Source of the DNA: an uncultured Eubacterium sp.
GTDB taxonomy: Bacteria > Bacillota > Clostridia > Lachnospirales > Lachnospiraceae
Direction of reading: 5' to 3'
Length of the DNA stretch: 64,000 nt
NCBI GenBank assembly: GCA_947564835.1
Contig: CANOET010000001.1
Location: forward strand, 8,667 to 72,666
The notes below the pieces were generated by a model, which was not told the origin of the DNA, searched no databases, and saw only the letters and a program-made list of their open reading frames with translations. The position numbers and the translations under genes were made by a program. Below are positions 14,829-62,021 of the stretch, piece by piece (within the stretch, counting starts at the first letter, position 1; each line of letters starts with the position of its first letter).

Positions 14829-16040
14829 TTACTGCAGTAACGATAATACACCCTGCGTAGATTGATTTGACTGTGCAAGCATAGATTGCCCTGCCTGTGC
14901 AAGAATATTATTCTTACTGTACTCAACCATTTCAGAAGCCATATCTGTATCACGAATACGAGACTCTGCTGACTGTGTATTTTCTGCTACATTATCCAAA
15001 TTAGCAATTGTATGCTCTAATCTATTCTGTAAAGCACCAAGTGCGGAACGCTGTGATGAAACTTTGTTAATCGCATTCTGTACAGCAGTAATTGTTGCAT
15101 TTGCTTCCGCATAACTATTTACTTCCGGTTTTGCTAATGTAAAACTCTCACCACTTGTTGCAACTGTTGGACTCTTGCCTGTAACCTCTGTCGTCTCGGC
15201 GTAAGTAATGAAGCTAGATAGAGTACCTAAATCAGTAGACACATTGCTTTTTGCAGCCGAAACATCTGCTGCCATAGCTTGAGAAGCTGTTGAATATTGA
15301 GAGCCTGCTGCATCTATAAAGAAAATACTTGTACCAGAAATCTGCTGTGCATAGTCATCCTCTGATGCCTGCTTATCAATAGAATCCTTAATCTGAGCTA
15401 TCGCTGCATCCTGATTCGCTGATAATGCCTTCGAGTCATCATACTGATAAGTATGCCCATTATAAGTCACTGTAGAAATTTCTTTACCTTTCTGAACATC
15501 GCCCTGCTTCATACCCTTAATGCTTCTTAAACCTAATGTCGCAGCATCCATATTATTAATACTGATCGTAATCTTCTGATTTGCATTTGCTCCAACCTGG
15601 AGATTCTTGCTGTCAAAAGTACCGTCTAACAGATTCTGTTTATTGAACTGTGTAGTAGTAGAAATTCTGTCAAGCTCCTGTGTCAAAGCATCTAACTCTT
15701 CATTAATCGCATCACGGTCAATGTTTTCATTTGTATCGTTAGCGCCCTGAACTGCTAATTCATTCATTCTCTGAAGGATGGAATGAGCTTCATTTAAAGC
15801 ACCTTCTGCTGTCTGAATAAGAGATACGCCGTCCTGTGCATTTGTTGAAGCTTTATTTAAGCCACGAACCTGACTTCTCATTTTTTCAGAAATCTTTAAA
15901 CCAGCAGCATCATCGCCTGCACGATTGATTCTGTAACCAGAAGATAATTTTTCTGAAGATTTAGACTGTGCGCCTGTTGTAACGCCTAACTGACGGTTAG
16001 CATTCATTGCTGTAAGATTATGCTGTACTACCATTGCCAT
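14829..16040 (-). CDS. fliC: Flagellin (major)
   Basis: MAMVVQHNLTAMNANR...LSSGYRINRAGDDAAGL N-terminus; ESRIRDTDMASEMVEYSKNNIL...VLSLLQ C-terminus; AAGGAGG RBS. Confidence 0.97.
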   Translation of the reverse strand: MAMVVQHNLTAMNANRQLGVTTGAQSKSSEKLSSGYRINRAGDDAAGLKISEKMRSQVRGLNKASTNAQDGVSLIQTAEGALNEAHSILQRMNELAVQGANDTNENIDRDAINEELDALTQELDRISTTTQFNKQNLLDGTFDSKNLQVGANANQKITISINNMDAATLGLRSIKGMKQGDVQKGKEISTVTYNGHTYQYDDSKALSANQDAAIAQIKDSIDKQASEDDYAQQISGTSIFFIDAAGSQYSTASQAMAADVSAAKSNVSTDLGTLSSFITYAETTEVTGKSPTVATSGESFTLAKPEVNSYAEANATITAVQNAINKVSSQRSALGALQNRLEHTIANLDNVAENTQSAESRIRDTDMASEMVEYSKNNILAQAGQSMLAQSNQSTQGVLSLLQ

Positions 16041-16177: not shown

Positions 16178-16204
16178 ATATCGGATGAACATTTGGATAC
16201 TTTA
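16178..16204 (-). promoter_or_regulatory. sigma28 (FliA/SigD) promoter of flagellin
   Basis: TAAA-N15-TCCGATAT on the minus strand. Confidence 0.85.
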
Positions 16205-24030: not shown

Positions 24031-27000
24031 TCAGAGTCCCTGCAAAAGCTCTAAAACTTGATCCTTATCCCGTTTTCTTTGCGACAGCATAGCCTCAGCC
24101 ACCTGCGTCAGTATAGAAGCAGCCGCATAATCTACTGCTTCTTTCGCCATATCCGCATCACGGATACGGCTCTCAGCAGCTGCCAGATTCTCAGCTGTCT
24201 GGCCCAGGTTTTGTATAATATGCTCTAAACGATTTTGATAAGCCCCATAGGAAGCGCGGATTCTTGAGACTTTTGTAACAGCATTCTGGATCACTGTTAT
24301 CGCATCTCCCGCATTTTCCTCTGTAGAAATATTCAGGCCCTGCATTTCCAAAGCCTTAAGAGAAAAATAAAACCTCGGTATTTCCAGCTTTACTCCAGCA
24401 GTTGCACCGACCTGCAGGATAATTCCTCCATATTTCTTCTTGTCATAACTATTATTCGAATCACCTGGATTTGGTTTCGTAATATATTCCGGCTTTTCCG
24501 CTGGTTTCGGTTTATCCTGCTGCGCAACACGGAATACACCCGCATCTGGATAGAACTTCAAATCAAGCACAGTAGATCCCTGATGGGTTACGCCTGTATC
24601 ATCCGTATAGTCATAAGTAATCGTAAGCTTTTGCTCGTTGTTAGAATTTCCTGTTGGAAGCCAGATAAAAACGTAATTCTCATCTAACGGCTCATGCCGC
24701 AAGTCTGGCGTCCATGGCCCCACCCCACTCTGATCAGATGAAATCTGGATATTACTAATCTTGTCTTTGCTGACACCTGATATCATATCCAATGGCAGCA
24801 GTCCAAAGTTTTCCAGCTGTTTACCTGCATCAAGCACTGCATTGTCTTTAAATAAGTAAACTGGATAAGCATAAACTGGATTGCCATTTTGGTCTTTGGA
24901 ACCAGAAGTACTATACAATCCTTCGCCCGAACTGCCAGGACGCAATGTCGTACCATTTCCAGTTACTGTTATCGTACCCGCGCTATCATCACTATGTGAT
25001 TTGTCTGTATAAGAAAGGATATTGCCTCCATTATGCGTCATGCCGCCAATTGCCGTAACAATTACCTTATTCTCCGGATTATTTATATCTCCAATCGTAA
25101 TATTTCCGCTTGTAGAGCCGCGTCCTGACCCGATACCGGTAGAATCTGTCTTACCTTGGGCTAAAACCGTTCCTTTCTTGATATCGATATCCCCGGTGGA
25201 AGATACCATATCCGTTTCACCACTGTAACCGGATCCGATCCCGACGCCATTCTCTCCGCCGTAAGCCTTAACTTCCCCATTCGTATCGATCACAATATTG
25301 CCAACATGACTGTCATCGTTTCCGGAACCAATACCAGCGCCACTATCACCGCCTCTGGCCTCATCAATAACAGCGTCTCCTGATATTTCAATATCTCCGC
25401 ACTCACCAAGCCAGGAAGCCCCAATCCCGGCTCCATCATCGCCGCCTTTTGCACTGATAATATGTGCATCACCGTTAATCGTAATTTTCCCGCTATTGCC
25501 CTGACATCCCGCACCGATACCGGTTCCATGCATCGTACTGGATGCAGTAATATCCCCGCCGGATATGGTAATCGTTCCGTTCGTGGCTGTCGATGTCCAG
25601 CCGCCTCCGATACCTGCTCCGTGTTCATTGCTGGATGCATCTACCGTACCATCGGTGATCAAAATATCGCCAACCTTTGCACCATATGCACCACCGATAC
25701 CTGCGCCGCCGGAACCGCCTTTTGCTGTGATGTTTCCTCCTGAAATGTTTATATCGCCAAACTCCGCCCGATTTCCGGCGCCGATACCAGCTCCATATCT
25801 CCCGCCGGTCGCCTTGATTTCCCCGCTCCTGATTTCTATACTGCTATTTGCCGCATTACTATTATTACTGCAGCCAATACCTGCACCATTTGTCCCACCG
25901 GTCGCTTCCAGCTTGCCTGACCCTAATAAGCCATATTCATTTTCCACAACCAGGCTGGTATTCTCCCCGACACGTATCCCGGCAGCATTATTGCCGCTTT
26001 GAAACTGATTATTTTGTCCGTCTTTCAGCTGTAAAGTAACCTGATTCCCGTTTCCAAGATCCAATGCGCATCCTGACGCAGGCTTGCATGTTACCCCATC
26101 CAGCAAAATATTCACATCTGCTCCCAGCTGATCATCCAGCCTGATGCTGCCATTGATATCGCCGCCATTCACTCCTGAAATCGTGCCGCCGGATATCGTG
26201 TAATTCCCTGCCTGCTTGATCACTAATTTTTCGCCTTCATAGACATAGTCCGTCCCCTCCTGTGCGGCAGCTCCATTCTTTAGCACCTGAAACGGGCCAA
26301 CCCACTCAAAGCCAGGATTCGCTGCTGTAGGATCAAATTTCGCCAGCAAGGTCTGGGATACACCGTCAGCGTCTGTAACCGTAACCTTATGCAGCGTTGA
26401 CTGCGAAGAGAGCGCATCTGCCGTCATCCACAATGTCGCCTTCTCACCATTGCCGATAACCATATCAGACTTCACACCATCAAAACTGATCGATACAACA
26501 TCAGCTGTTAATCCGCCAAGCTTATCCGTCCAAGGCAGATCAATCGCATACAAAGCCTCACCTGAAGAATTTTTCTGCGGTGCCGGCAAGTCAGCTGTAA
26601 CAGAGGCATTGTCTATTTCGATATCTGATGCAACTATCTGCCCGCTGCCATTTGTTCCGACCGAAACAGCCCCTCCATGAAACCGGACCGTATTTGTTTG
26701 ATCACTTGTAAAATCTCCCGTCTCCAGCCTGCCAGTACCGTTAAATGTAACATCCGTACCATTGTCCAGTGTAATGCCTCCCAGTTCGCTAACCCCGGTA
26801 TATGTAATCTCTGTATCCGTCTTTACAGTAAGCGCATCTGCTGCATCAAGATTTAAGTTATTTAATGTAACCTTTCCGGTACCCTGCAATACGATTTTGC
26901 CGTTTGACGGTGAAGTCAGCCCATCTTTTAATGAGATCTGCACATCACTGTTTCCGCTGACCGTCAGTGTTTGAGTAACCGCATCGTAGGTGACATCGCC

Positions 27001-28782
27001 GCTTGCCGCTCCTTTCACTACAAAGTCCCCATACTCAGTTCCCCCGGTCTGTCCAGGATTATATCCGGTTGGCGGCGTTCCTGATGTACTCGCTGCACCG
27101 CCTGAATAGACTTTATACCCATCCGGGTAAAGATTCTTAACACCCGTATGATCCGGATCCAGCTGAAATAAATGAACCGTAGTCCCCGGACTGCTGTCAG
27201 GCGTCAGATCCGCAGCTTTTAAATCGCCGGAAACGATTCCTCCCCTTCCCGAACCTGTCGCCGCAAGTAATTCGCGGGTAAAAGCTGCCGCATCCTGCAA
27301 TCCTGCATCAAACTTTGTTTGAAAATCTGCGCAGCTTTGAAATGTTCCATTTGTCAGCTTATTAATTGCCGCATCCAATGATTCTCCGCCGATTACCTGA
27401 TTCAATAATTTCGAAAGTCCGTCTGAAATGGTCGCAGCACTCACTACTGAAGAACGGGTACCGCCTCCTTCAATGACAGCTCCCAGATACATACATGCCA
27501 GATAACCTGTCCCATATTCGCTGGCAGTAGTTCCTGAACCAAGCTGATTTCTCTGGATTGCAGCCTGAATCTGCGAATCCGTCGACTGGTCTGTGATCTG
27601 GAAAGTAGAAGATGCCAGCCAGTTTCCAGGGCCGGATGCCGTCTGTGCCATCCCTTCTACAAACCACTTAGGAAATCCATCCACATTCTGTGTCAGGCTC
27701 CCGCCCGTAGAACTTTCCATTTTGCCAAACATGCCTGCCGTAGTAGCCTCATCCATAAAAGCATGAATCATCTCATGAGCAATCGTAGCCTCTAATTCAT
27801 CCAAATCAGCCCTGTTTTGAATATTTTGCAGAACACTTGTATTTACACCAAGTGTATATGTAATATAATCGTCCCTGCTTACAACTGCACCAGAAGAATC
27901 CACACTTCCTGAAGACCTGACCTGGCCCTTAACATAAGCAAGCGTTGTTGTCCCGCCAGACGAACCGCTGGAAAAATACTCCAGGCCAATACCAATATTG
28001 GATCCCTTCAGATAAGAAAATGCCGGATAATGTTCGAGAATATTGTTGACCGTATTCGGTATAATCTCTGTTTTCAAAATCTGGCTGAGTGTTTTTCCTT
28101 CAATCATAATATCATTGCCTGCAAGCGTACTGCTGCCTTCAGGTGTCTGTGTCGCGCTAACAGCTTGATCCACCCGCTCTGCTGTTGTATAAATAATATT
28201 AATCTCATTATCCGGAGGATTAGCAACGAATCCATTCAGCGTTTCAGACAGGTCCACCTTCGTGTCCATCGCCTGCTGGCTGCTTCGTACATCCATCTGC
28301 TCCGCCTGAGAATACGCTGAATAATCCCCATAAGTACATTCATATTCATAACCATCATCCTGAAAAAGCGATATCCTGTTATAATTCGTCGTCTTCGCGA
28401 TCCGTTCAATTTCACTGCAGATATGCTCTAACTCATCCTGCATCCCGTCACGGTCACCATTTACATAAGTCCCATTTGCTGACTGAATCGAAAGCTCTGA
28501 TAAGCGGTGCAGCATATCATGCACCTCATTCAATGCCCCGTCTCCAATCTGAATCAAACTGATTCCCTCCTGTGCATTTAACGCTGCACGGTTCATCCCG
28601 CGCACCATTGCACGCACCTTTTCTGAAATAGCAAGGCTTGCCGCATCATCCGCAGCTGTATTGACCCGATAGCCGCTTGACATGCGTTCTGTTGTATTCT
28701 CTTTTTCCTTTTTCTTGATATTGATTTGTCTTTGTGAATTTAATGCAGCCAGATTATGTGCGATAATCACTGATAGGAACAC
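24031..28782 (-). CDS. Giant flagellin with gluzincin metallopeptidase (flagellinolysin-like) domain and glycine-rich beta-helix repeats
   Basis: Flagellin N (HNLAALN...SSGYRVN) and C (ESRIRDADMA) termini; AHEMIH at 27763-27777 followed by WFVEGMAQ; many GAGIG(A/G/S)G repeats ~25100-25900; start may be GTG 28770. Confidence 0.9.
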   Translation of the reverse strand: MFLSVIIAHNLAALNSQRQINIKKKEKENTTERMSSGYRVNTAADDAASLAISEKVRAMVRGMNRAALNAQEGISLIQIGDGALNEVHDMLHRLSELSIQSANGTYVNGDRDGMQDELEHICSEIERIAKTTNYNRISLFQDDGYEYECTYGDYSAYSQAEQMDVRSSQQAMDTKVDLSETLNGFVANPPDNEINIIYTTAERVDQAVSATQTPEGSSTLAGNDIMIEGKTLSQILKTEIIPNTVNNILEHYPAFSYLKGSNIGIGLEYFSSGSSGGTTTLAYVKGQVRSSGSVDSSGAVVSRDDYITYTLGVNTSVLQNIQNRADLDELEATIAHEMIHAFMDEATTAGMFGKMESSTGGSLTQNVDGFPKWFVEGMAQTASGPGNWLASSTFQITDQSTDSQIQAAIQRNQLGSGTTASEYGTGYLACMYLGAVIEGGGTRSSVVSAATISDGLSKLLNQVIGGESLDAAINKLTNGTFQSCADFQTKFDAGLQDAAAFTRELLAATGSGRGGIVSGDLKAADLTPDSSPGTTVHLFQLDPDHTGVKNLYPDGYKVYSGGAASTSGTPPTGYNPGQTGGTEYGDFVVKGAASGDVTYDAVTQTLTVSGNSDVQISLKDGLTSPSNGKIVLQGTGKVTLNNLNLDAADALTVKTDTEITYTGVSELGGITLDNGTDVTFNGTGRLETGDFTSDQTNTVRFHGGAVSVGTNGSGQIVASDIEIDNASVTADLPAPQKNSSGEALYAIDLPWTDKLGGLTADVVSISFDGVKSDMVIGNGEKATLWMTADALSSQSTLHKVTVTDADGVSQTLLAKFDPTAANPGFEWVGPFQVLKNGAAAQEGTDYVYEGEKLVIKQAGNYTISGGTISGVNGGDINGSIRLDDQLGADVNILLDGVTCKPASGCALDLGNGNQVTLQLKDGQNNQFQSGNNAAGIRVGENTSLVVENEYGLLGSGKLEATGGTNGAGIGCSNNSNAANSSIEIRSGEIKATGGRYGAGIGAGNRAEFGDINISGGNITAKGGSGGAGIGGAYGAKVGDILITDGTVDASSNEHGAGIGGGWTSTATNGTITISGGDITASSTMHGTGIGAGCQGNSGKITINGDAHIISAKGGDDGAGIGASWLGECGDIEISGDAVIDEARGGDSGAGIGSGNDDSHVGNIVIDTNGEVKAYGGENGVGIGSGYSGETDMVSSTGDIDIKKGTVLAQGKTDSTGIGSGRGSTSGNITIGDINNPENKVIVTAIGGMTHNGGNILSYTDKSHSDDSAGTITVTGNGTTLRPGSSGEGLYSTSGSKDQNGNPVYAYPVYLFKDNAVLDAGKQLENFGLLPLDMISGVSKDKISNIQISSDQSGVGPWTPDLRHEPLDENYVFIWLPTGNSNNEQKLTITYDYTDDTGVTHQGSTVLDLKFYPDAGVFRVAQQDKPKPAEKPEYITKPNPGDSNNSYDKKKYGGIILQVGATAGVKLEIPRFYFSLKALEMQGLNISTEENAGDAITVIQNAVTKVSRIRASYGAYQNRLEHIIQNLGQTAENLAAAESRIRDADMAKEAVDYAAASILTQVAEAMLSQRKRDKDQVLELLQGL

Positions 28783-28871
28783 TCCCCTCCATGGTTTTCT
28801 CCTGTGATACGGTCAGGCATTTTCAGCCTGACCCAGGTACATGCAAATCCATTGCATTCTAAAATTGTTCT

Positions 28872-29246
28872 TCAATCCCATCGTCCAATCAGATCCAAAG
28901 TGATCCTCTCCTTACACTTCGGACACGAAACCTCTCTTGCATCCCGCGGAACCGGTGTAACCGGGCTGCTGCAATCCGGGCAGACACCCCAGATATGCAT
29001 TTCCTGTCCGTTTTCTGTCTGCTGATATGTTACATCTGTAGCAACAACCAGCTTTTTACACCTGATGCAGAACGCGGCATTGCGTTTGATCTGAAACCAT
29101 TCGCTTGCTTTAACTGCAGCTGCCTCTTTTTCATTGTGTACGGCAGCTATTGCCGTCTCCCGTTCACAGTCCGCCAGTCCTCCGCCGATAAATAATTCTG
29201 TATGGTAGCCGCACTTCGGACACAAGGCCTTAATGATTGATCCCAT
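28872..29246 (-). CDS. Double zinc-ribbon protein (four CxxC), upstream of the giant flagellin
   Basis: CPKC, CIRC, CPDC, CPKC pairs; AGGAG RBS; directly behind a sigma28 promoter. Confidence 0.75.
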   Translation of the reverse strand: MGSIIKALCPKCGYHTELFIGGGLADCERETAIAAVHNEKEAAAVKASEWFQIKRNAAFCIRCKKLVVATDVTYQQTENGQEMHIWGVCPDCSSPVTPVPRDAREVSCPKCKERITLDLIGRWD

Positions 29247-29307
29247 ATTTTACTCCTAATATTTTTTAATCTATCTTTGTACTTGTATTTAACTATAATA
29301 TACAGAT

Positions 29308-29334
29308 ATATCGGTAAAAAATAAGATAACTTTA
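29308..29334 (-). promoter_or_regulatory. sigma28 promoter for the zinc-ribbon/giant flagellin operon
   Basis: TAAA-N15-ACCGATAT on the minus strand. Confidence 0.8.
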
Positions 29335-29892: not shown

Positions 29893-32637
29893 ATGGAAGT
29901 GGATATTTGCAGACAGTTTGTATTACATAATGATTTTATTCCTCCAACAAGTGATATACATAGTTGGGATTACCTTGCATTTGGTTATATAGACGGTATT
30001 TCAATAGCTGAGAGAAACCTTTTATCAGCCAGTAAAAAGCCACTAAAATACTTATGGGAAAACAATGCAGCTACAAAAGGAGAACTATTAAAACGTGAAT
30101 CAAGGCAAGTCGTATACGGATTTAGAACAGAAAATGAAGCAGCCAACGAAGATACATTATTTTGGGAGAATATTCAGCACAGCTTTGATTATCCTTTTTT
30201 ATTCTTTATCATGATACAATTTGAGGATCAAGGGCGAAAGAATCTTTCCAAACTATTAGAAAGCCGTGAATTAGTTGAACGAAAATTTAATCAGGAAAAT
30301 GTAAAAGGAATTACTTATCTAACTTTAGATAACAGTAACTTACTTTTGATATTAAAAAGTCGCTTTTATGAAGACGGAGCCGAAATTATAGACCAGATTC
30401 ACCGCAAAGAACCATTTTTTTCAGATTCAGAAAACATCTGGAAAGTAAAATACAGTTTTACCATACCTGCTGTAAGTAAAGAATATTTAAATGATTCTAA
30501 CTTTGAGACACTTAATAATAAGAAGATGTACCAGGCATATATTTATGCAATGGAATTGTCATTAGGAAGTATTCAAGCATTTTATAAAAAACTGTTCTTT
30601 GAAATAAAGAAGGATTTAAAGCTGAATGATGAAAATGAACTAGCGAATCATATTTGCAAACAGTCTATTCTTGGATATAATGATGAATTAATTATCCTTA
30701 AGGACATTCCTTGGAAAACTTTTTTAACATTTTTTAAAGATTCCACTGGCTTATTAAATCATTCAAATAATACATATCAGAAATATATTTCTTGCTTAAC
30801 AACTATTATCGGATTACGCCAGAATGCCGAAACATGCAACTTTGGATATCAATCCGGCATGTCTGAAACGCAGCGTAAATTTTTTATTTTTTTGCAAAAA
30901 AGATTAGAGGGTTTCGTTTCTAAGTATGAGAATAATTCATACAGTGACAGTATGTTTCTGTCTATTTACCATTTACTAAATTCTCTTTCTAAGTTTGAAA
31001 AAGACAATATTAGTGAAAATATGTTTCTGCCCTCTGCACTTTCTATATTTTTACTAGTAGAAATCCTGATCGATACTTATGACAATAAAGTGATTTTTAA
31101 TATCAATAATATTTACAGAGAATATAGAGCCTTTTTAAACGGATTAAATTCATATGCGCAAAATCCTATACGATCAGACAGACAGATTACGCAAATAATT
31201 GAGTTAAATGTAAGAACATATAATTTACCAATTAAGCTAAATGCTTTTTACAATGCATTTATTTATTTAGTACGGGATTTTTTAAATGAAACAGAAGGTG
31301 AAACCGAACACTTTTACGAGTTTTTGACATGTCCAGGGGTTTCGCTGCATGTATATACTAAAGAATTATTTGAAGGGTATTCATCAAACAAACGATTATG
31401 TCTGGTAAATATTCCCGAAAGCCAAGTCTATAACCTGGAACAAATGATGATTATTCTTGGTCATGAAATTGGACATTATGTAGGTGGACAGATAAGAAAT
31501 CGTTCTGCAAGAGTTATTTGTTTATTTAAGGCACTTTCCCGCATGATAATAATCTATTATAAAAATAAATTAACCCTAGACCAGGATATATCTATTGATC
31601 TTTGGAATGAATTAGAAAAAACTCTTTGCGGGCATATAGAAAAAGACTATCAAGATTATTATGATATTAATTATATTAGACAGAGATTTACTGATAATGA
31701 AGGAAGATCAAGTAGTAAGTACTGTAACAACCCAGAGGAGCTTGCTCATTTTCGTAAACAGCATCAAGATCATGGTATTATTTTAAAAAATGCATTTTTA
31801 GATTCATCGATACATTCCATAAGAGAAAATGAAGATAAGCTTTTTCAGAAGTTTTTGTATGATATTTATATGGAAAGTTACAAAAAATCGGATTTTAACA
31901 AAAAAGTAGCTCAAAGCAACCGAAAAAAATTAGAGAATGAAATAGCAAGAGCTTCGCGCCGTTTATTTCAGATATCATCATACGGTACTGACAATATAAA
32001 TATTGAAAGTTTGATAAGTACACTTTTGTCTCTTTGTAAAGAATGTTTGTCAGATATCATTGTTATTATGACTTTAGAATTACGTGTGGAACAATATATG
32101 GAAACATTCCTTGATAATGCAAAGGAACAAGGTCAGCTCGAACAACTAATGGCCAATCCACTTAATACAACTTTGATCCGGTTATCTTTAGTGTTTATTT
32201 GTATGATGATTACTAGTAAAAAACGAAATTTAGGTTACGGATGGAAACAAGATTATACGCTATCCATCAGTTCATCTGACGATATGGTTCGTCTACAAAC
32301 CGATATTAATTTATTTATTAACAAATATTATGTAAATAATTGTTCCAACAATTTTGAACCTATAGGATACATAGTGAATCCAGATTTTTGCTTAGATTAC
32401 TATGTTTTAAATGAAATTCTAAAATACCTTTTAAAATGTAGAAAATGTTGTGCAGATTTAATTCACAGAAAAAAAGATAAGCAAAAAAAGATTCTAGATA
32501 TTTTCGGAGTATGCAATACTGAAAATATAGAAACAGCCATGCTGCAAATAGAAAACTTTGTTGGTGAGTATCGGGAACAAGTTTTACAAAAAATGGACAA
32601 TATCGTTAATATCACAAATATGGAGAGATCAAAATGA
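29893..32637 (+). CDS. Large hypothetical protein with zincin metallopeptidase motif
   Basis: 914 aa; LGHEIGH at 31462-31476 and downstream ECLSD (E-x-x-A/S-D) ligand motif; AT-rich. Confidence 0.7.
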   Translation: MEVDICRQFVLHNDFIPPTSDIHSWDYLAFGYIDGISIAERNLLSASKKPLKYLWENNAATKGELLKRESRQVVYGFRTENEAANEDTLFWENIQHSFDYPFLFFIMIQFEDQGRKNLSKLLESRELVERKFNQENVKGITYLTLDNSNLLLILKSRFYEDGAEIIDQIHRKEPFFSDSENIWKVKYSFTIPAVSKEYLNDSNFETLNNKKMYQAYIYAMELSLGSIQAFYKKLFFEIKKDLKLNDENELANHICKQSILGYNDELIILKDIPWKTFLTFFKDSTGLLNHSNNTYQKYISCLTTIIGLRQNAETCNFGYQSGMSETQRKFFIFLQKRLEGFVSKYENNSYSDSMFLSIYHLLNSLSKFEKDNISENMFLPSALSIFLLVEILIDTYDNKVIFNINNIYREYRAFLNGLNSYAQNPIRSDRQITQIIELNVRTYNLPIKLNAFYNAFIYLVRDFLNETEGETEHFYEFLTCPGVSLHVYTKELFEGYSSNKRLCLVNIPESQVYNLEQMMIILGHEIGHYVGGQIRNRSARVICLFKALSRMIIIYYKNKLTLDQDISIDLWNELEKTLCGHIEKDYQDYYDINYIRQRFTDNEGRSSSKYCNNPEELAHFRKQHQDHGIILKNAFLDSSIHSIRENEDKLFQKFLYDIYMESYKKSDFNKKVAQSNRKKLENEIARASRRLFQISSYGTDNINIESLISTLLSLCKECLSDIIVIMTLELRVEQYMETFLDNAKEQGQLEQLMANPLNTTLIRLSLVFICMMITSKKRNLGYGWKQDYTLSISSSDDMVRLQTDINLFINKYYVNNCSNNFEPIGYIVNPDFCLDYYVLNEILKYLLKCRKCCADLIHRKKDKQKKILDIFGVCNTENIETAMLQIENFVGEYREQVLQKMDNIVNITNMERSK

Positions 32638-34076
32638 GCAGCCAATCAGCAATAAATCAACGATTTCATACTATATTGAAAGAACTTTTTAAAGAAATAT
32701 ATGAAAACTTCAAATTAGAAATTTTCTATGTCATTACGCAGAAAGAAAATAATAATTTACGCTATAATGTGATAGAGAATGTGGAAGATATTGCAGCATA
32801 TAAACTTCACACTAAGTTTGAACAGAAAATGGATAAACCCTGGAATAAATATAAGACAGATAAGGAGGATAAATACTCTCTATACTGGGAAATATATGTC
32901 CTTAACGATTTTTATTTCATAAATAATAACGATTTACATAATCAAGTTATTGAAGAATTTTTTGAGATTTTTCTTGAAAATCTTGTGGAAGGTTTTGTTG
33001 ACTATGAAATGTTTACAACATTGAACCAAAATAACGATACGGAAAATGAAGTTGTATTGAAACATCTTTTCTCATGTGTAAACGATCCGATACTGCTTCT
33101 TAATATGTTTGTAGATAAAATTTTAAAAATGAAGTTTCTCCCAGAAAAAAATGAAATAATACAACTGTCGGCACAAATGTATGAAAAGCGCCCAATACAT
33201 GGAAGTATTTGTTTCGTCCCAGATCAAACATGTAAGAAACTGTTTCATACACCTATTCCAGGAACTTGTCTGGATTTAAAGTTTTTGCCACCTACATTCC
33301 GTACTATAGAAACAAATAACCTCCGGGGACTACGAAAACTCTTAGAATTAAACACAGACGAAACCACTATGATCGCTGTTAATAAATCAGAAAAAGATAC
33401 TACAGAAAGTATATTTGCAGGAATTATAGCTTATACAGATACTATAAAGAGCTCCCTGGAAAAATATCCACAAATTAAATTCAATGGATACTTAAATTGG
33501 CAGCTTTCCATCAATAATACGGAATGGTTCTCTTATAATAATGGAACTTACAAAATTTGTTATGAGAGCAGAGAAAATCTATGGAAAAGAACACTAGACC
33601 CTCTAGATTTAGACCCACAAAAAACTACTGATTTATTAGAGATTATAACACTCCTTTCCAAAGAGTCACATGGTACATCTGTCATATTTATTGATAAAGA
33701 TATTTTGACCAGTATAGATGATAAACAAGGTGAAGTTGACAGACTTAATAATAAAAACCGGTGTATAAAAATCTATGATGCAGAAGGCAATCCATCTTGC
33801 ACTATGAATTTAATAGATTACCTACACAACATCAAAGGAATCACATCCATTGATGGTGCGATCATTGCAGACCTGGACGGAAACATACATGCAATTGGCG
33901 CCATACTGGACGGAGAAGCTAAAAAAATTGGAGATGTGAGTAAAGGAGCCAGACATAATTCTGTAAACAATTATCTTTCTGTTATTAAAAGTAAATATAC
34001 AGGATCCAATATGTTTGGTGTCATCGTCTCTGAAGATGGAAATATAGAACCGGTAATACCATCTTCCCAGGCCTGA
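32634..34076 (+). CDS. DisA_N/DAC diadenylate-cyclase-domain protein with N-terminal sensor-like domains (DACNG/DACNH-type architecture)
   Basis: HGTSV, SIDGAII, GAILDG, KGARHNS, VIVSEDG motifs of the DAC fold; ATGA overlap with upstream gene. Confidence 0.82.
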   Translation: MSSQSAINQRFHTILKELFKEIYENFKLEIFYVITQKENNNLRYNVIENVEDIAAYKLHTKFEQKMDKPWNKYKTDKEDKYSLYWEIYVLNDFYFINNNDLHNQVIEEFFEIFLENLVEGFVDYEMFTTLNQNNDTENEVVLKHLFSCVNDPILLLNMFVDKILKMKFLPEKNEIIQLSAQMYEKRPIHGSICFVPDQTCKKLFHTPIPGTCLDLKFLPPTFRTIETNNLRGLRKLLELNTDETTMIAVNKSEKDTTESIFAGIIAYTDTIKSSLEKYPQIKFNGYLNWQLSINNTEWFSYNNGTYKICYESRENLWKRTLDPLDLDPQKTTDLLEIITLLSKESHGTSVIFIDKDILTSIDDKQGEVDRLNNKNRCIKIYDAEGNPSCTMNLIDYLHNIKGITSIDGAIIADLDGNIHAIGAILDGEAKKIGDVSKGARHNSVNNYLSVIKSKYTGSNMFGVIVSEDGNIEPVIPSSQA

Positions 34077-35826: not shown

Positions 35827-36732
35827 CTATTTTTTCATTTGTTCTGCCCGGATCTTTAACTGCATAGATATTTCCTGACAGGACTTCAGCATACGTGCAG
35901 CCGCAGGTGCCCTGTCTGTGTTTGGATCTGATGAAAAATCAGACATTTCCTTCGCTAGTTTTTCAAACTCCTGATGAATCAAACGCTCGCAGGATAACAC
36001 CTGGGGTCCTCTCTCGCCAAAACTGCTTTCATTTCTCAGAAAACCGGTTATTTTTTTCAATTCATACACTACTTTTTTTAATACTGGGTCATGTTCACTT
36101 TTCGCTTTTTCTAAAAGCTGTTCAAAGTATAGATATACATCCGTTTTCTCTTTCGTATTTTCATTGATATTATTTAATTGAAATATGTTCTCATGCAAAT
36201 GTGTATTTAGAACATCGTCTTTATGATCTATTTTATTGCTTTTCACCAGTTTTTTTTCCGATGCATGCAATCCATAATGTCTTTCATCAGAAAATCCCTC
36301 TAAACATGGTTCAATGATCTTATCCGTGCATACTTCTTTTATTGCCACATCCCAATCGTTCCTTTTGTACATCAGAACAGACTGAATCATATCCAGCCGC
36401 ATTTCAAATCCGTATGTAAGCTTTGCCTGCTCAATATATAGAAGAATGCATTTTTTCTTTATCTTCAGCATATAGTTTAACTCCATCCTGCAAAAGTCTG
36501 ATTTCATATATGCATTGGATAAAAAAGCAATTCCTACCTCTGCCTGCCTTAAATGTTCCGCAATAACTTCCGGAAATTCGCTGCCGATCGGGATTGCGGC
36601 ATCATACCAAAATCTGCATCCGTATCCCGTCATCCATGTCATAATTTTGAACACGGTTCCTTCATCTTCATGACAATAGCTAATAAAACAATATTTTTCG
36701 TTTCCTTCATATGCTGTTGGTTTGTTGGCCAT
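35827..36732 (-). CDS. TIR-domain protein with C-terminal helical bundle
   Basis: AYEGNEKYCFISYCHED, FWYDAAI, FLSNAYMKSDFCRMEL (catalytic-type Glu). Confidence 0.88.
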   Translation of the reverse strand: MANKPTAYEGNEKYCFISYCHEDEGTVFKIMTWMTGYGCRFWYDAAIPIGSEFPEVIAEHLRQAEVGIAFLSNAYMKSDFCRMELNYMLKIKKKCILLYIEQAKLTYGFEMRLDMIQSVLMYKRNDWDVAIKEVCTDKIIEPCLEGFSDERHYGLHASEKKLVKSNKIDHKDDVLNTHLHENIFQLNNINENTKEKTDVYLYFEQLLEKAKSEHDPVLKKVVYELKKITGFLRNESSFGERGPQVLSCERLIHQEFEKLAKEMSDFSSDPNTDRAPAAARMLKSCQEISMQLKIRAEQMKK

Positions 36733-36833
36733 CGATTCATCTCCACATTTGTTCTTCTTTTTCCTGATCTGAGGAACCGGAAATAACTTGTTTTACAGTT
36801 CCTTTGCTTGAAATCTCTTCCTCTAATATATCC

Positions 36834-38009
36834 CTAGATTTGAAAACTGTTTAGCTTCAGTGTTGAACCATCCAGCAAGTAAACAAATGCCGCGGTGTTA
36901 TTTCCATTGTAGCTTTGATTCGTTACTTCTCCGTCCCAATGAGTTACTTCATACAATTCGCTGTAATCATAATTTAGGTTTATATGAATGTAAACCGTGC
37001 CATCATCATTATAATAAGAAGCCTCCGGCTGTATTTCCCCCACCGCCAGGCTGAGTTTCCTTCCGGACTGGATTTGTTGTGCCAGATATAAATAATTACT
37101 TATGACATCTTCTTCAGACTCTGGCAAAATAGAGATTCCTTGTAATCCGGATTCATCTTTATTTTGAAATGCAGCCTTATAGATCTTTTTTAGATCGTCA
37201 GCTGCCTGGGTAACTGCTTCCTGCATGGCTTCCGGCTTTAATTTCATTGCATCTGCACTGCAAGATCCCTCCGACGTATCTACGAGCATCGTAAGGTCTT
37301 CCATGTTCTCTTTTGAGACCGTTACTTCATAGTAACCCTTAAAAATTTGCGGAATCACATATCTTGCATTGCCATACTCTCCTTCCTGTAAATACTCTGC
37401 CTGCAAGTTCACTCCGTCTACCGTTACAGCCGCTCCTTTCGGTACATTTATAATAAAATCTTTGACAATATAATCACTCAGATCCGGCTTCCAGTCATGG
37501 AACAAAAGCAATTTTTTAGAACTGCCCAGATTCACCTGCACCCCATTACGATGGGTTCCGCCTTCCTGATCCGTCAAATGGATCGAAATATAACTGCTGC
37601 CTCTGTCCCGATTGGCAGCTGCTTTGCCAACAAACACTTTATGGTAAAAACCGTCCTCAGAAGAAGGCTCTTCTACCTGATATTCTTTGTAACTCTTTGT
37701 CTGCATTCTCTGCTGGACATTTACAAATGCCTCTTTGCTCATAAATGCATCAACATCACCGGAAAGATCCAGGTCATCATAAATACTGTCATAATCGGCA
37801 TTGATCAGCTTTACGGCATACGCCTTTGCTTCCCGTTCCGGGCTGTACCTTACATAACCTGTATAGATAAACAGGCGCGCAGCCAGAAATGCCAATACCA
37901 TTTGTACAATACAAAGTCTGGCCTTTGATTCCCGGATATATCCCCATACTCTGTTTATAAACCGTTGGATTACTGCCATAACAAATCCTCTCTTCCCATG
38001 TCTATTCAT
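36834..38009 (-). CDS. Membrane-anchored extracytoplasmic protein (TcaA/YvbJ-like, PEGA-like domain)
   Basis: Single N-terminal TM, NVPKGAAVTVDGV...IFKGYYEVTV; likely start 37979. Confidence 0.65.
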   Translation of the reverse strand: MNRHGKRGFVMAVIQRFINRVWGYIRESKARLCIVQMVLAFLAARLFIYTGYVRYSPEREAKAYAVKLINADYDSIYDDLDLSGDVDAFMSKEAFVNVQQRMQTKSYKEYQVEEPSSEDGFYHKVFVGKAAANRDRGSSYISIHLTDQEGGTHRNGVQVNLGSSKKLLLFHDWKPDLSDYIVKDFIINVPKGAAVTVDGVNLQAEYLQEGEYGNARYVIPQIFKGYYEVTVSKENMEDLTMLVDTSEGSCSADAMKLKPEAMQEAVTQAADDLKKIYKAAFQNKDESGLQGISILPESEEDVISNYLYLAQQIQSGRKLSLAVGEIQPEASYYNDDGTVYIHINLNYDYSELYEVTHWDGEVTNQSYNGNNTAAFVYLLDGSTLKLNSFQI

Positions 38010-38637
38010 TTAATTCATTCCGGCGCTGTGCCAGAAGTTCGATATTATCATGCTGCAGTTCTGTCATATAATTTAATGGATTTTCATTCATTTCATCCAC
38101 ATAATATCTGCCTTCGTACCAGTCGAATTGTTCATAGTACGCCCTTTTTTCATCATCACGGAACATACATCCTGTTCGTGCATAAATATAGTTGATCGCA
38201 TCCTGCACTTCTGCCTTCGTTGTCAGGCTTCTGACATCTGCGGCTGTTAATCTTTCTTTGTAGCTGTTCGGAAAAGCAAATTCATCGGCATCCGCTGTAT
38301 TCTCTTCATCCGTACTTTCATCATCTAAAATTTCTTCATCCGTATTTTCTCCATACGAAGCTGTCTGGGTGCTGCCTTTTTTCGTATTATCTGCACTGAC
38401 TTTAAATCCTTTGATCGCAGAATATGTCTGTCCCTCATCTTCGAATCTGGACTCCATTTCGTTTTCCAGCCCCAGATCAGCAGCGCTTTCTATCTGCTTC
38501 CCTTTTGCAGCATTTACCCTTTTCCAAGGCGGTGCTGTCGTAATCCACACGTAGACTGTCAGGAGTACAAACAATGCAATGATAACCGGTAATATTTTAT
38601 TTGCCGTCTCCAATATTTTTTCTTTTTGTTTTTTCAT
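38002..38637 (-). CDS. Membrane-anchored YARHG-domain protein
   Basis: N-terminal TM, acidic linker, AINYIYARTGCMF (YARHG variant). Confidence 0.8.
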   Translation of the reverse strand: MKKQKEKILETANKILPVIIALFVLLTVYVWITTAPPWKRVNAAKGKQIESAADLGLENEMESRFEDEGQTYSAIKGFKVSADNTKKGSTQTASYGENTDEEILDDESTDEENTADADEFAFPNSYKERLTAADVRSLTTKAEVQDAINYIYARTGCMFRDDEKRAYYEQFDWYEGRYYVDEMNENPLNYMTELQHDNIELLAQRRNELNE

Positions 38638-38709
38638 AATTCTCTCCCATATCCTTTCCTTGCAGTAACGATTCATTGCTATACAAAACACACCCATCAA
38701 TCTGCCAAG

Positions 38710-39606
38710 CTACAGTTTTGCTCCGCAATTGCTGCAGAATCTTTGGCCTGGCGCGCAGATAGCATTACAATTGCCGCATATTTTTGAGCCATTGCTTTCT
38801 AATTGACTGCTGCGCAGCATCCGGAGCCCTTTTCCTGCATCCTCAAAGCTTGCATTTTCAGACCGTTTTGCAATCTCTTCAAAAACGGTATAAGAACGGT
38901 TCGTTTCGTAAAAACTGCTCCCCAAAGCCATTTCCTGCTTATACTTTTGAAGCAGCTGGTACTCTTCCTTCGGAGGTGTAATAGACGCTATGTAAAAGTT
39001 CTGTATTTCTACACCAAACCGTTCAAATTCATCGGAAATGGCATCCTGGCATTGTTCCGATAATTCATCCAGCCAGGCGGTAACTTCTAAAAACGATATT
39101 TGTTTCCGTATCATAAATTTAGAAATAACCGTTTTTATTTTCGTTGTAAGCAGCGCACTGAAATAGGTGGCAATCATCGTATAATCAATCGCCGCTCCCT
39201 TTTGCATTGTCCCTGTCAGTTCAGAAACAAACATTTTTGCATTCTGGATTCTCAGACCGTATTTTCCATACGAACGGATGGATAGAATCAGGCCGTATTT
39301 AGGATCTTCTAATTGAAAGGGCGTCTGTGTTCCCCAGTTCATATCTAATTTTGAAGTGATGTTTACAAAATAGATTTCTGCTGAAAACATCTCACCTGTT
39401 CCGGCAGATGTATGATTTGAATAAAGTACATGCGTCCCAGATTGATAGACCTCACAGTTTTTCCTGCCCTGAAATATAAGCACTTCCTGTCCCTGCTTTA
39501 CAACAAGGCGGGTGCCTGGCACAAACTGCTCACCCGGATATTTATAAATAAGCCATGGTTCTCCGTTTTGATTTCCATCAAATTTAATTGTTGTCACATA
39601 TGTCAT
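38710..39606 (-). CDS. SPFH/band-7 (YdjI-like) protein with C-terminal zinc ribbon
   Basis: LVVKQGQEVLIF, AEIYFVN, WGTQTP...DPKY; CGNC...FCSNCG tail. Confidence 0.85.
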   Translation of the reverse strand: MTYVTTIKFDGNQNGEPWLIYKYPGEQFVPGTRLVVKQGQEVLIFQGRKNCEVYQSGTHVLYSNHTSAGTGEMFSAEIYFVNITSKLDMNWGTQTPFQLEDPKYGLILSIRSYGKYGLRIQNAKMFVSELTGTMQKGAAIDYTMIATYFSALLTTKIKTVISKFMIRKQISFLEVTAWLDELSEQCQDAISDEFERFGVEIQNFYIASITPPKEEYQLLQKYKQEMALGSSFYETNRSYTVFEEIAKRSENASFEDAGKGLRMLRSSQLESNGSKICGNCNAICAPGQRFCSNCGAKL

Positions 39607-39891
39607 AATTCCTGCTCCATATAATTATAATAAGATACATGCTATGATAAAAATACTATCCTATACATTCTACTATATGTGCCGACATTTTTCAACAATA
39701 AATTTCATTTATTTTCATATTATAACCATTATTACAACAAAAAAAGCTTGCACACCTATCTGAAATAAATCTCCGGAAGTTCCCTGCAAAAATCCTCAGC
39801 ATAATCCGTGATACCCCTGATTTCTACAAGCTGCTTCCGAAAACCCATTCCCATTAAAATGTACAAGCTATTTCTATTAAAATGATTCCCT

Positions 39892-59273: not shown

Positions 59274-59509
59274 AACGATCCTTTGCTTTTTATTTTGCAT
59301 ATCGGCAATTTGCATATTAATGTTTACTGCTATCTTAATTATAGCAATATTATGAACAGAACTCAAGTGTTTCCATCAATTCCAATATATGGAAAAAGTG
59401 TTTCCATCAATTTCTATAGATGGAAAAAAGCAGATTACCGAAAGATAACCTGCCCTTTGCGTTTCTTAATTCTATTTAAATTCTCCGCTTTCCTCAGCGG
59501 ATCAATGAT

Positions 59510-60390: not shown

Positions 60391-60504
60391 CCCGAATCCT
60401 CCCTGATATTCCGACATGAAAGAAGGTTTGGATACATAAAGTATTCAAACCCGTGTCACAGGGCAGCCAAACTGTCCTGTGACTTTAAAATCCTGTATGG
60501 TACT

Positions 60505-62010: not shown

Positions 62011-62021
62011 ATCGTTACCTC

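What the first reader, a model, noticed from the sequence alone, without database searches (positions are those of the whole stretch)
24031..28782. 1583-aa flagellin carrying a protease plus a beta-helix module
The HEMIH...EG gluzincin motif marks a flagellinolysin (a known class), but it is followed by ~900 further residues with repeated GAGIGxG / I-x-I-x-GG-x-I-x-A turns resembling Cthe_2159-type polysaccharide-lyase-like beta-helices. A bifunctional protease/glycan-binding flagellin of this size is beyond the flagellinolysins I know. Inference: a minor filament subunit that degrades or binds mucin glycoproteins.
Basis: partly seen in the sequence, partly recalled or inferred. Interest (0 to 1): 0.75.

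Follow-up and report, generated by a model that had tools for sequence, protein, structure and literature searches.

The report
Giant protease-and-beta-helix flagellin with partner
A rodent-gut Clostridia bacterium encodes, and transcribes in vivo, a roughly 1580-residue flagellin whose exposed middle carries a flagellinolysin-type zinc protease followed by a long beta-helix rod, always paired with a small uncharacterised zinc-ribbon gene; the architecture is undescribed in the papers searched but common in gut metagenomes.

Summary
ORF 24031-28782(-) is intact, though the real start is probably GTG 28770 (1579 aa). It has canonical flagellin N- and C-terminal domains. Between them lies a zincin protease domain homologous to the characterised flagellinolysin FliA(H); H336, E337, H340, E376 and A379 are invariant in 62 relatives. 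About 860 all-beta residues follow: two beta-helix segments with GxGIG rungs and two beta-sandwich domains.

New findings:
- A 124-aa four-CxxC zinc-ribbon gene (28872-29246) sits directly upstream. It is syntenic with protease flagellins in 45 of 80 related genomes.
- A sigma-D/sigma-28-type promoter lies upstream of the zinc-ribbon gene. Mouse-gut metatranscriptome contigs start just downstream of it and span both genes.
- The beta-helix module is a promiscuous extracellular module, found in thousands of dockerin, SLH and Big_2 proteins.

The architecture occurs in dozens of Lachnospiraceae and Oscillospiraceae genomes from rodent and ruminant guts, all annotated as hypothetical, and no paper found describes it.

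Best reading: a late-flagellar, filament-displayed "protease on a stalk". Mucin specificity, minor-subunit status and glycan binding remain untested. I rate it a new variant of a known kind.

The parts
24031..28782 (-). Giant flagellin ORF (1583 aa from the first GTG). The probable CDS is 24031-28770 (1579 aa).
   Evidence: The 1579-aa form is identical to P0240. The RBS GGAGGGGAG abuts the first GTG.
28357..28770 (-). N-terminal D0/D1 helices (aa 5-142).
   Evidence: Pfam Flagellin_N 115.9 bits. 46% identical to the neighbouring conventional flagellin and 49% to FliA(H).
28171..28356 (-). N-side linker (aa 143-204), largely disordered in the model.
   Evidence: Model A has pLDDT below 50 for segment residues 1-35.
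27103..28170 (-). Flagellinolysin-type zincin metalloprotease domain (aa about 205-560).
   Evidence: NF033876 gives 162.5 bits, E 1.9e-47. hhalign against the FliA(H) HVR gives probability 96.2%. The AF2 model has pLDDT 85, with a beta-sheet, an active-site helix and a glutamate helix.
27763..27777 (-). HEMIH zinc-binding/catalytic motif (H336, E337, H340).
   Evidence: Invariant in 62 of 62 aligned relatives and 50 of 50. Aligns with FliA(H) HEMTH.
27646..27657 (-). E376-G377-M378-A379: third zinc ligand Glu and 'basement' Ala.
   Evidence: E, G and A are invariant. They align with FliA(H) WFIEGTAEA, that is E262/A265.
26533..27015 (-). Beta-helix segment I (aa 590-750).
   Evidence: Model B has short regular strands and pLDDT about 90.
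26278..26499 (-). Inserted beta-sandwich domain (aa 762-835).
   Evidence: Model B strands E173-246. No Pfam match.
24913..26247 (-). Beta-helix segment II with GxGIG rungs (aa 846-1290). The conserved rungs are NEHGAGIGGGW and TMHGTGIGAGC.
   Evidence: Pfam Cthe_2159 aa 850-1111 and Beta_helix_3. Rungs listed. pLDDT 95-99. Conservation shown. The top, weak Foldseek hits are beta-helix proteins.
24523..24879 (-). C-terminal beta-sandwich domain (aa 1302-1420), with conserved W1357, H1363, W1374 and R1418.
   Evidence: Model B strands E713-830. Invariant columns.
24418..24522 (-). Pro/Lys-rich return linker (aa 1421-1455).
   Evidence: pLDDT below 50. Pro-rich in relatives, with a conserved P.PP.A.KP.Y motif.
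24034..24417 (-). C-terminal D1/D0 helices (aa 1456-1583).
   Evidence: Pfam Flagellin_C 71.4 bits. 53% identical to the conventional flagellin.
28872..29246 (-). 124-aa zinc-ribbon partner gene with four CxxC motifs and a C-terminal GxWD.
   Evidence: Syntenic homologue next to the protease flagellin in 45 of 80 loci. M1, G2, the 8 Cys, G121, W123 and D124 are invariant. No family match.
29308..29334 (-). Sigma-D/sigma-28-type promoter TAAA-N16-CCGATAT.
   Evidence: The pattern has 3 hits in the window against 0.55 expected. RNA contig ends at 29268-29280 lie just downstream.
28811..28833 (-). Stable hairpin in the zinc-ribbon/flagellin intergenic region.
   Evidence: The 116-nt region folds at -34.9 kcal/mol, z -2.67. 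Function untested.
14829..16040 (-). Conventional 403-aa flagellin, the probable co-polymerising partner.
   Evidence: Pfam Flagellin_N and Flagellin_C. ATG at 16040 after AAGGAGG. Sigma-D-type motif at 16179-16204.

Best explanation
The gene encodes a late-flagellar (sigma-D class) giant flagellin paralogue of the flagellinolysin family.

Shown:
- Its D0/D1 helices are canonical.
- Its roughly 1310-residue hypervariable insert consists, in order, of a flexible linker, a zincin protease domain with an intact HExxH...E...A active site, a long predicted parallel beta-helix in two segments with one beta-sandwich inserted, a terminal beta-sandwich, and a Pro-rich return linker.
- It is co-transcribed with a conserved 124-aa zinc-ribbon gene from a TAAA-N16-CCGATAT promoter.
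- It is transcribed in mouse gut.

Inferred:
- The protein is exported unfolded by the flagellar type III system.
- It polymerises through D0/D1 into the filament, probably together with the nearby 403-aa flagellin, as shown for FliA(H) in Clostridium haemolyticum.
- It then displays many copies of an active metalloprotease attached to a rigid rod. The rod length is about 7-10 nm, estimated from rung count times 4.8 A.
- The rod and its sandwich domains act as a spacer and/or a binding platform for a polymeric substrate. This resembles, by analogy only, serine-protease autotransporters, where a protease sits on a beta-helix stalk.
- The zinc-ribbon protein is most likely a dedicated cytoplasmic partner (holdase, inhibitor or regulator) for protease-bearing flagellins. 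It tracks the protease domain, not the beta-helix.
For: - Flagellin core.
- Protease homology and invariant catalytic residues. Gluzincin-like secondary-structure order in a pLDDT-85 model.
- All-beta rod model with pLDDT 90 and pTM 0.83. Cthe_2159 and Beta_helix_3 matches. The top-ranked, though weak, Foldseek hits are all beta-helix proteins, including IgA1 protease, EspP, Pet and Cthe_2159.
- Family conservation over 34-97% identity with intact ORFs.
- Sigma-D-type promoter.
- A single RNA contig, 27702-29280, spans the zinc-ribbon gene and 1.08 kb of the flagellin gene with 0 differences. Contig 5' ends lie at 29268-29280 in three runs.
- In the mouse metatranscriptome X27, the gene is covered at 98% identity or more while the adjacent glycosylation genes have depth 0.
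- Zinc-ribbon synteny and invariant cysteines.
- FlaG, FliD, FliS, a conventional flagellin and a Maf/nonulosonic-acid glycosylation island are in the same window.
- Filament incorporation and activity of FliA(H): PMC5595980.
Against: - There is no protein-level evidence for export, polymerisation or activity.
- The NCBIfam flagellinolysin score (162.5) is below the curated equivalog cut-off (205).
- Identity to FliA(H) in the protease domain is only 21%.
- Foldseek finds no significant solved relative for either model. In particular it finds no M9 collagenase, the template used for FliA(H).
- The beta-helix assignment to a carbohydrate-binding family is marginal.
- A strict sigma-D motif is found upstream of the zinc-ribbon gene in only 5-11 of 45 related loci.
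- Contig depths cannot rank expression against the conventional flagellin.
- Which end of the rod points outward is unresolved. Both linkers lengthen with insert size.
Confidence: 0.6

Rival explanations
1. Export vehicle only. The flagellin termini serve as a type III secretion signal and chaperone-binding site. The protein is released as a soluble or loosely attached exoenzyme/adhesin rather than built into the filament.
For: - The insert is very large, about 1310 aa.
- The D0/D1 domains score lower against Pfam than the neighbouring flagellin (115.9 and 71.4 bits against 145.6 and 92.4).
- The C-terminal D0 is unusually charged (SQRKRDKDQVLELLQGL).
Against: - D0/D1 are full-length and 46-53% identical to the conventional flagellin over their whole length.
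- They are conserved across the family.
- The characterised relative FliA(H) is in filaments.
- Flagellins over 1000 aa do form filaments (PMC6248924).
Confidence: 0.15
2. Mainly structural giant flagellin. It is a major subunit that builds thick or sheath-like filaments, as a mechanical adaptation to viscous gut contents. The beta-helix is bulk or inter-subunit packing, and the protease is secondary.
For: - Giant flagellins give thick filaments in Oceanospirillales.
- In the X27 metatranscriptome the giant gene is detected at 98% identity or more, whereas this strain's conventional flagellin is not.
Against: - Catalytic residues are invariant in all full-length relatives.
- The same protease domain, with the same zinc-ribbon partner, occurs in 640-780-aa flagellins without any rod.
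- A conventional flagellin with its own sigma-D-type promoter is adjacent.
Confidence: 0.13
3. True bifunctional enzyme. The beta-helix is a catalytic polysaccharide lyase or glycosidase (as in pectate lyases and phage tailspikes), so the flagellum degrades both protein and glycan, for example mucin or plant cell wall.
For: - Weak Foldseek hits to pectate lyases Pel3 and PelI and to phage beta-helix proteins.
- Near-invariant His, Asp and Glu residues precede the GxGIG turn on consecutive rungs (H1054, H1085, DD/DS/EN).
- The module co-occurs with dockerins in cellulosomal-type proteins.
Against: - No lyase or hydrolase Pfam family reaches E 0.1 or better.
- All structural matches have E of 0.01 or more and TM of 0.26 or less.
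- To my knowledge, Cthe_2159 itself is described as lyase-like but binding only.
- Conserved positions are mostly Gly and Ile, which are structural.
Confidence: 0.1

Closest known systems
Flagellinolysin FliA(H) of Clostridium haemolyticum and the 'proteolytic flagellin' family (Eckhard et al. 2017, PMC5595980; Hylemonella gracilis, PMC7643111)
   Same: - A flagellin N/C core with a central HExxH...E...A zincin domain.
- The motifs align residue for residue.
- NCBIfam NF033876 is the best non-core match.
- A conventional flagellin is encoded in the same genome.
   Different: - 1579 aa against 561 aa.
- Only 21% identity in the protease domain, and below the NF033876 cut-off.
- H-to-E ligand spacing is 36 residues against 25.
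- About 860 extra residues of beta-helix and beta-sandwich.
- A conserved zinc-ribbon partner gene is not mentioned in that work.
- Activity and location are untested here.
Giant flagellins (over 1000 aa; Thomson et al. 2018, PMC6248924)
   Same: The length class is the same. Firmicutes examples from gut isolates are already listed there by length (E. plexicaudatum ASF492 at 1278 aa, Butyrivibrio sp. CAG:318 at 1623 aa).
   Different: The studied Oceanospirillales giants were characterised for filament thickness. That paper's text does not mention peptidases or beta-helices. Whether its listed Firmicutes entries share this architecture was not checked.
Cthe_2159 (PF14262; PDB 4phb) and the Beta_helix_3 (PF18889) extracellular modules
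   Same: GxGIG-type rungs. The Pfam gathering score is met for aa 850-1111. 4phb is among the top Foldseek hits. The same module occurs in more than 6000 extracellular proteins of gut bacteria.
   Different: Here it is inserted inside a flagellin and is far longer. The structural match is not significant (E 0.56). Carbohydrate or Ca2+ binding is untested.
Serine-protease autotransporters and IgA1 protease (PDB 3h09, 3sze, 4om9)
   Same: The overall design is an N-terminal protease domain followed by a beta-helix stalk of about 10 nm. These are the top-ranked Foldseek hits over 840-960 columns.
   Different: This is analogy only. The protease class differs (serine against zinc). There is no beta-barrel translocator and the secretion route differs. 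E-values are 0.03-1.1 and TM about 0.1-0.15.

Membership tests
Bacterial flagellin (FliC/Hag) | N-terminal (PF00669) and C-terminal (PF00700) helical domains at the two ends of the protein. | tested here: met
   115.9 and 71.4 bits, both above cut-off. Both ends match 60 or more solved flagellins.
Bacterial flagellin (FliC/Hag) | Assembly into the flagellar filament. | not testable with these tools
   Context only: FlaG/FliD/FliS and a second flagellin in the window, and a sigma-D-type promoter.
Flagellinolysin (NCBIfam NF033876) | HExxH plus a downstream Glu ligand and a basement Ala inside the hypervariable region. | tested here: met
   H336/E337/H340/E376/A379 are invariant. They align to FliA(H) H233/E234/H237/E262/A265.
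Flagellinolysin (NCBIfam NF033876) | Score at or above the curated equivalog cut-off (205 bits). | tested here: not met
   162.5 bits, E 1.9e-47: a homologue, but outside the curated equivalog.
Flagellinolysin (NCBIfam NF033876) | Thermolysin/collagenase-like (M9-like) gluzincin fold. | tested here: inconclusive
   The secondary-structure order fits: a sheet, the HExxH helix, then the Glu helix. Foldseek against the PDB finds nothing at E 0.4 or better. The PDB profile search gives no peptidase beyond SprT at E about 1. Pfam M9 matches only 3 of 50 members, below threshold.
Flagellinolysin (NCBIfam NF033876) | Zn-dependent peptidase activity, and display on filaments. | not testable with these tools
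   Needs an enzyme assay and immuno-EM.
Cthe_2159 carbohydrate-binding beta-helix (PF14262) | Pfam gathering score. | tested here: met
   29.4 bits against 25.8, aa 850-1111. The margin is small.
Cthe_2159 carbohydrate-binding beta-helix (PF14262) | Right-handed parallel beta-helix fold resembling 4phb. | tested here: inconclusive
   The model is all-beta with pLDDT 90 and regular rungs of about 30 aa. 4phb ranks 5th but with E 0.56 and TM 0.24.
Cthe_2159 carbohydrate-binding beta-helix (PF14262) | Binding of polysaccharide and Ca2+. | not testable with these tools
   Needs binding assays.
Polysaccharide lyases (pectate-lyase-type beta-helix enzymes) | Match to a lyase family model. | tested here: not met
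   No such Pfam or NCBIfam family at E 0.1 or better.
Giant flagellins (Thomson 2018) | A flagellin longer than 1000 aa. | tested here: met
   1579-1583 aa.
Giant flagellins (Thomson 2018) | Thick filaments. | not testable with these tools
   Needs EM.

The most novel reading that the evidence does not exclude
Protease-bearing flagellins of gut Clostridia form a two-gene system. A dedicated zinc-ribbon protein keeps the enzyme-loaded flagellin export-competent or inactive in the cytoplasm. In the giant branch, the filament becomes a rotating brush of metalloproteases mounted on beta-helix stalks about 10 nm long, tipped by a binding domain. This would be a flagellum-borne functional analogue of protease autotransporters, used to attach to and digest host or dietary glycoprotein matrices.
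Probability: 0.3. Interest if true: 0.75.

Novelty: new variant of a known kind. Interest (0 to 1): 0.58.

Why it matters
Flagellinolysins are the only flagellins shown to be enzymes, and only small single-domain examples have been studied. This locus shows three things:
- In gut Lachnospiraceae and Oscillospiraceae the same protease has been fused to a long beta-helix/beta-sandwich rod taken from the pool of extracellular (cellulosomal and cell-wall) modules.
- The gene is transcribed in vivo.
- The gene travels with an unstudied zinc-ribbon partner.

If the protein is in the filament, the flagella of abundant commensals would be large multivalent enzymatic and adhesive surfaces. That bears on mucus or fibre colonisation, on how flagellin antigens are presented to the host, and on how type III export handles cargo of about 160 kDa (rough size estimate). 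The zinc-ribbon partner offers a concrete handle on how bacteria avoid premature folding or activity of an enzyme embedded in a flagellin.

Tried and rejected
- **Foldseek, protease model against the PDB.** No meaningful hit. The collagenase-like fold could be neither confirmed nor excluded.
- **Foldseek, rod model against the PDB and BFVD.** Only weak hits at the level of fold class.
- **phmmer and profile searches of the protease domain against PDB sequences.** Nothing specific.
- **Pfam on 50 protease domains.** Only sub-threshold zincin families (SprT-like, M76, M1, M9).
- **Orientation of the rod.** I tested whether the Pro-rich return linker scales with rod length, which would have fixed the orientation. 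Both linkers scale (Spearman 0.58 and 0.73) and the sequences are not independent, so the question stays open.
- **Sigma-D motif in relatives.** Found in only 5 strict and about 11 loose cases out of 45, so promoter conservation is not established.
- **Word-index homologue search for the zinc-ribbon protein.** It found only 3 close relatives. tblastn in the fetched loci was more sensitive.
- **Profile of the zinc-ribbon family against the PDB.** Only generic CxxC zinc-ribbon and zinc-finger hits.
- **Tandem Repeats Finder on the gene.** No repeats, so the rungs are old at the DNA level.
- **Source species.** It could not be named. The closest GTDB representatives are uncultured Lachnospiraceae and Eubacterium MAGs at 69-72% identity, and run labels are coded.
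- **Eubacterium plexicaudatum ASF492 as the source.** Considered and dropped: its listed giant flagellin is 1278 aa.
- **Glycosylation-island adjacency.** It is not conserved in relatives, so it was not made part of the system.

Full report
**1. Observation**

The ORF 24031..28782 on the minus strand is real and uninterrupted, at 1583 aa from the first in-frame GTG. The Shine-Dalgarno-like GGAGGGGAG directly abuts that first GTG. The second GTG (28770) gives MIIAHNLAALNS, the usual flagellin N-terminus; FliA(H) begins MIINHNINAMNA. It also reproduces exactly the 1579-aa protein called on at least 23 public contigs (P0240). The CDS is therefore most likely 24031-28770.

HEMIH lies at aa 336-340 and WFVEGMAQ (E376) follows. 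Eight strict GxGIG rungs spaced 29-31 aa apart lie at aa 966-1183, and a further degenerate rung (TGIGSG, about aa 1215) can be read from the sequence.

**2. Domain anatomy**

- Pfam finds Flagellin_N (aa 7-142, 1.9e-33), Flagellin_C (aa 1495-1580, 8.1e-20), Cthe_2159 (aa 850-1111, 29.4 bits against a cut-off of 25.8) and Beta_helix_3 repeats.
- NCBIfam's best non-core match is flagellinolysin NF033876 (aa 230-526, 162.5 bits, E 1.9e-47). This is below the curated equivalog cut-off of 205.
- PDB sequence searches match only the D0/D1 helices.

Two AlphaFold2 models were built on family alignments.

- Residues 143-600 gave pLDDT 85.4 and pTM 0.82. The model has a disordered first 35 residues, then a three-stranded sheet, a long helix carrying HEMIH, and a second helix carrying E376. 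That is the order expected of a gluzincin.
- Residues 590-1462 gave pLDDT 90.2 and pTM 0.83, and the model is essentially all-beta.

From the strand pattern I parse the second model as follows:
- beta-helix I, aa 590-750;
- an inserted beta-sandwich, aa 762-835;
- beta-helix II, aa 846-1290;
- a C-terminal beta-sandwich, aa 1302-1420;
- a disordered Pro/Lys-rich linker, aa 1421-1455, leading back to D1.

Foldseek found no significant solved or viral relative for either model. For the rod, however, the top-ranked weak hits are all right-handed beta-helix proteins. They include H. influenzae IgA1 protease, pectate lyases Pel3 and PelI, the autotransporters EspP and Pet, Cthe_2159 (4phb) and EtpA. 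The fold class is therefore supported, but family membership beyond the marginal Pfam score is not.

**3. Is the protease a flagellinolysin?**

The supplement of Eckhard et al. 2017 prints the FliA(H) sequence, so a direct comparison was possible.

- BLASTP aligns the two cores at 49% (N) and 41% (C) identity. The protease regions align at 21% over 234 columns (E 2e-4). HEMIH pairs with HEMTH, WFVEGMAQTA with WFIEGTAEAM, and YGTGYL with YAAGYL.
- A 50-sequence profile of the domain against the FliA(H) hypervariable region gives hhalign probability 96.2%, E 2.4e-9.
- H336, E337, H340, E376, G377 and A379 are invariant in 62 relatives and in an independent set of 50 genome-derived domains.
- Every full-length relative among the 120 listed keeps an HExxH at the equivalent position.

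It is thus a distant but genuine member of the proteolytic-flagellin lineage, with an apparently intact active site. Enzymatic activity itself is inferred.

**4. How common is it, and where?**

The full-length search returned 244 relatives. Of the 120 listed, nearly all are over 950 aa and most are 1200-2600 aa. They are essentially all unnamed or 'hypothetical', and come from Firmicutes, Oscillospiraceae, Ruminococcus and Ruminiclostridium MAGs.

An exhaustive HMMER search with the protease domain alone finds 390 clusters at 50% identity (88 at E 1e-30 or better). They fall into two main length classes, about 640-780 aa and about 1200-1900 aa.

In GTDB species representatives, 122 loci encode the domain. 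Among the best 80, about 20 are giants with GxGIG rungs (Lachnospiraceae, Oscillospiraceae, Ruminiclostridium, Ruminococcus, from mouse, goat, deer, sheep and cattle guts). The rest are ordinary-sized protease flagellins. The nearest representatives are only 69-72% identical, so the source species is not among them.

The exact DNA occurs in mouse and rat gut metagenomes.

The beta-helix segment alone hits more than 6000 proteins. Most are not flagellins, and they carry dockerin, SLH, Big_2, Listeria-Bacteroides repeat, LysM, PLAT or fn3 domains. The rod is therefore a widely shuffled extracellular module, not something specific to flagella or to mucin.

**5. Context and regulation**

The window holds FlaG, FliD and FliS (60007-62462). 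It also holds a conventional 403-aa flagellin (14829-16040) and a nonulosonic-acid glycosylation island. That island includes NeuC-like, NeuB, Maf, GT-D, CMP-sugar synthetases, a dehydratase and an aminotransferase.

The pattern TAAA-N15-17-CCGATA, which to my knowledge is the consensus of Bacillus sigma-D promoters, occurs three times against 0.55 expected; 1 of 100 shuffles reached that count. The three sites are:
- upstream of the conventional flagellin;
- at 59300-59326;
- at 29309-29334, which is 63 nt upstream of a 124-aa ORF (28872-29246) that directly precedes the giant gene.

RNA evidence:
- In mouse metatranscriptome X31, a single 1581-nt contig with no differences runs from 29280 through that ORF, across the intergenic region, and 1.08 kb into the flagellin gene.
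- Contigs from X30 and X32 end at 29279 and 29268.
- In the rRNA-depleted mouse metatranscriptome X27, contigs at least 98% identical cover 24603-28373. The glycosylation genes next door have depth 0, which argues for RNA rather than contaminating DNA.

The two genes are therefore co-transcribed in vivo from a start just downstream of the predicted promoter. Contig depth is too crude to say whether the giant is a minor or a major flagellin.

**6. The partner gene**

tblastn with the 124-aa protein finds a homologue (23-61% identity, about 125-135 aa) adjacent to the protease flagellin in 45 of 80 loci. It lies immediately upstream on the same strand in most of them, and downstream in a few. 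It is present in every giant locus examined among L001-L017 and L036, and in many short protease flagellins.

Alignment shows M1, G2, four CxxC pairs (C9/12, C60/63, C89/92, C108/111), G121, W123 and D124 to be invariant. No Pfam, NCBIfam or PDB family matches beyond generic zinc ribbons.

Because it follows the protease domain irrespective of the rod, I infer a role tied to carrying an enzyme inside a flagellin. It could be a holdase, an inhibitor or a regulator. This is inference only.

**7. Mechanism**

Shown: the architecture, the conserved active site, flagellar-type regulation and in vivo transcription.

Inferred from the FliA(H) precedent and from the finding that flagellins over 1000 aa form filaments: type III export, co-polymerisation with the conventional flagellin, and surface display of many protease copies on rigid rods.

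The rod has roughly 15 rungs in helix II and 5-6 in helix I. At 4.8 A per rung (general beta-helix geometry) that gives about 7-10 nm.

Because the insert must leave and re-enter D1 at the same place, one of the two flexible linkers has to run the length of the rod. Candidates are aa 143-204 and the Pro-rich aa 1421-1455, which carries the conserved P.PP.A.KP.Y motif. Which one does so, and hence whether the protease or the terminal sandwich sits at the tip, could not be resolved.

**8. Comparison and novelty**

Flagellinolysins and giant flagellins are both known. The papers found do not describe a protease-plus-beta-helix flagellin or the zinc-ribbon partner. Thomson et al. list Firmicutes giants only by length.

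The finding is therefore a new variant of a known kind. It is widespread in databases but unannotated. The mucin, glycan-binding and minor-subunit inferences remain untested, and the mucin idea is weakened by the module's distribution.

Noticed in passing
window 28872-29246 (-); homologues in L001-L017, L036 and many others: A 124-aa protein with four CxxC motifs and a C-terminal GxWD is encoded adjacent to the protease-flagellin gene, directly upstream in most loci. It is present in 45 of 80 related loci, next to both giant and short forms, and matches no known family.
   Followed up: yes
window 59300-59326 (-), 57471-59366 (-), 55295-57313 (-): A third sigma-D-type promoter motif lies inside the 5' part of a 631-aa ORF with a class B sortase domain. 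Downstream of that ORF is a 672-aa protein with CAP and Listeria-Bacteroides repeat domains. Together they could be a flagellar-regulon surface-protein pair.
   Followed up: no
window 29893-34076 (+), GC about 30%: A low-GC insertion sits between the flagellar genes. It encodes a 914-aa protein with an HEIGH motif and no family match. It also encodes a 480-aa protein with a DACNH sensor domain and a sub-threshold match to an NCBIfam 'anti-phage protein' model (92 bits against a cut-off of 630). This is probably a defence island.
   Followed up: partly
window 35827-41637 (-): A cluster encoding a TIR-domain protein (weak ThsB/PDC-S66 matches), a TPR protein, a YARHG protein, an SPFH/zinc-ribbon protein and an HD/dGTPase-like protein. 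These are further candidate defence genes.
   Followed up: partly
window 8485-9177 and 10644-11333 (-): Two cytidylyltransferase (CTP_transf_3) genes, presumably CMP-nonulosonate synthetases, 2156 bp apart, share a 300-nt stretch at 90% identity. This is a recent duplication inside the flagellin glycosylation island.
   Followed up: partly
window 1650-23938 (-): A large flagellin glycosylation island flanks the conventional flagellin and abuts the giant gene. It includes a CBS-nucleotidyltransferase, an aminotransferase, a dehydratase, GT-D, Maf, a radical SAM enzyme, PIG-L, a formyltransferase, a methyltransferase, a FemAB-like protein, NeuB and a NeuC-like protein. The adjacency is not conserved in relatives.
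   Followed up: partly
window 28811-28833 (-): A stable GGUCAGGC/GCCUGACC hairpin lies between the zinc-ribbon gene and the flagellin start. It is followed by AGGA and GGAGG motifs. It could modulate translation or the relative expression of the two genes.
   Followed up: partly
window about 28700-28716 (-): An A-rich stretch in the flagellin mRNA appears to prime oligo-dT libraries: X30 shows a loose poly-T end at 28702. This inflates depth over the 5' region in polyA metatranscriptomes.
   Followed up: no
P0311, P0312, P0318, P0342, P0352: In some relatives of 1245-1900 aa the protease domain sits at the extreme C- or N-terminal end. These may represent a different domain order or non-flagellin contexts.
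   Followed up: no
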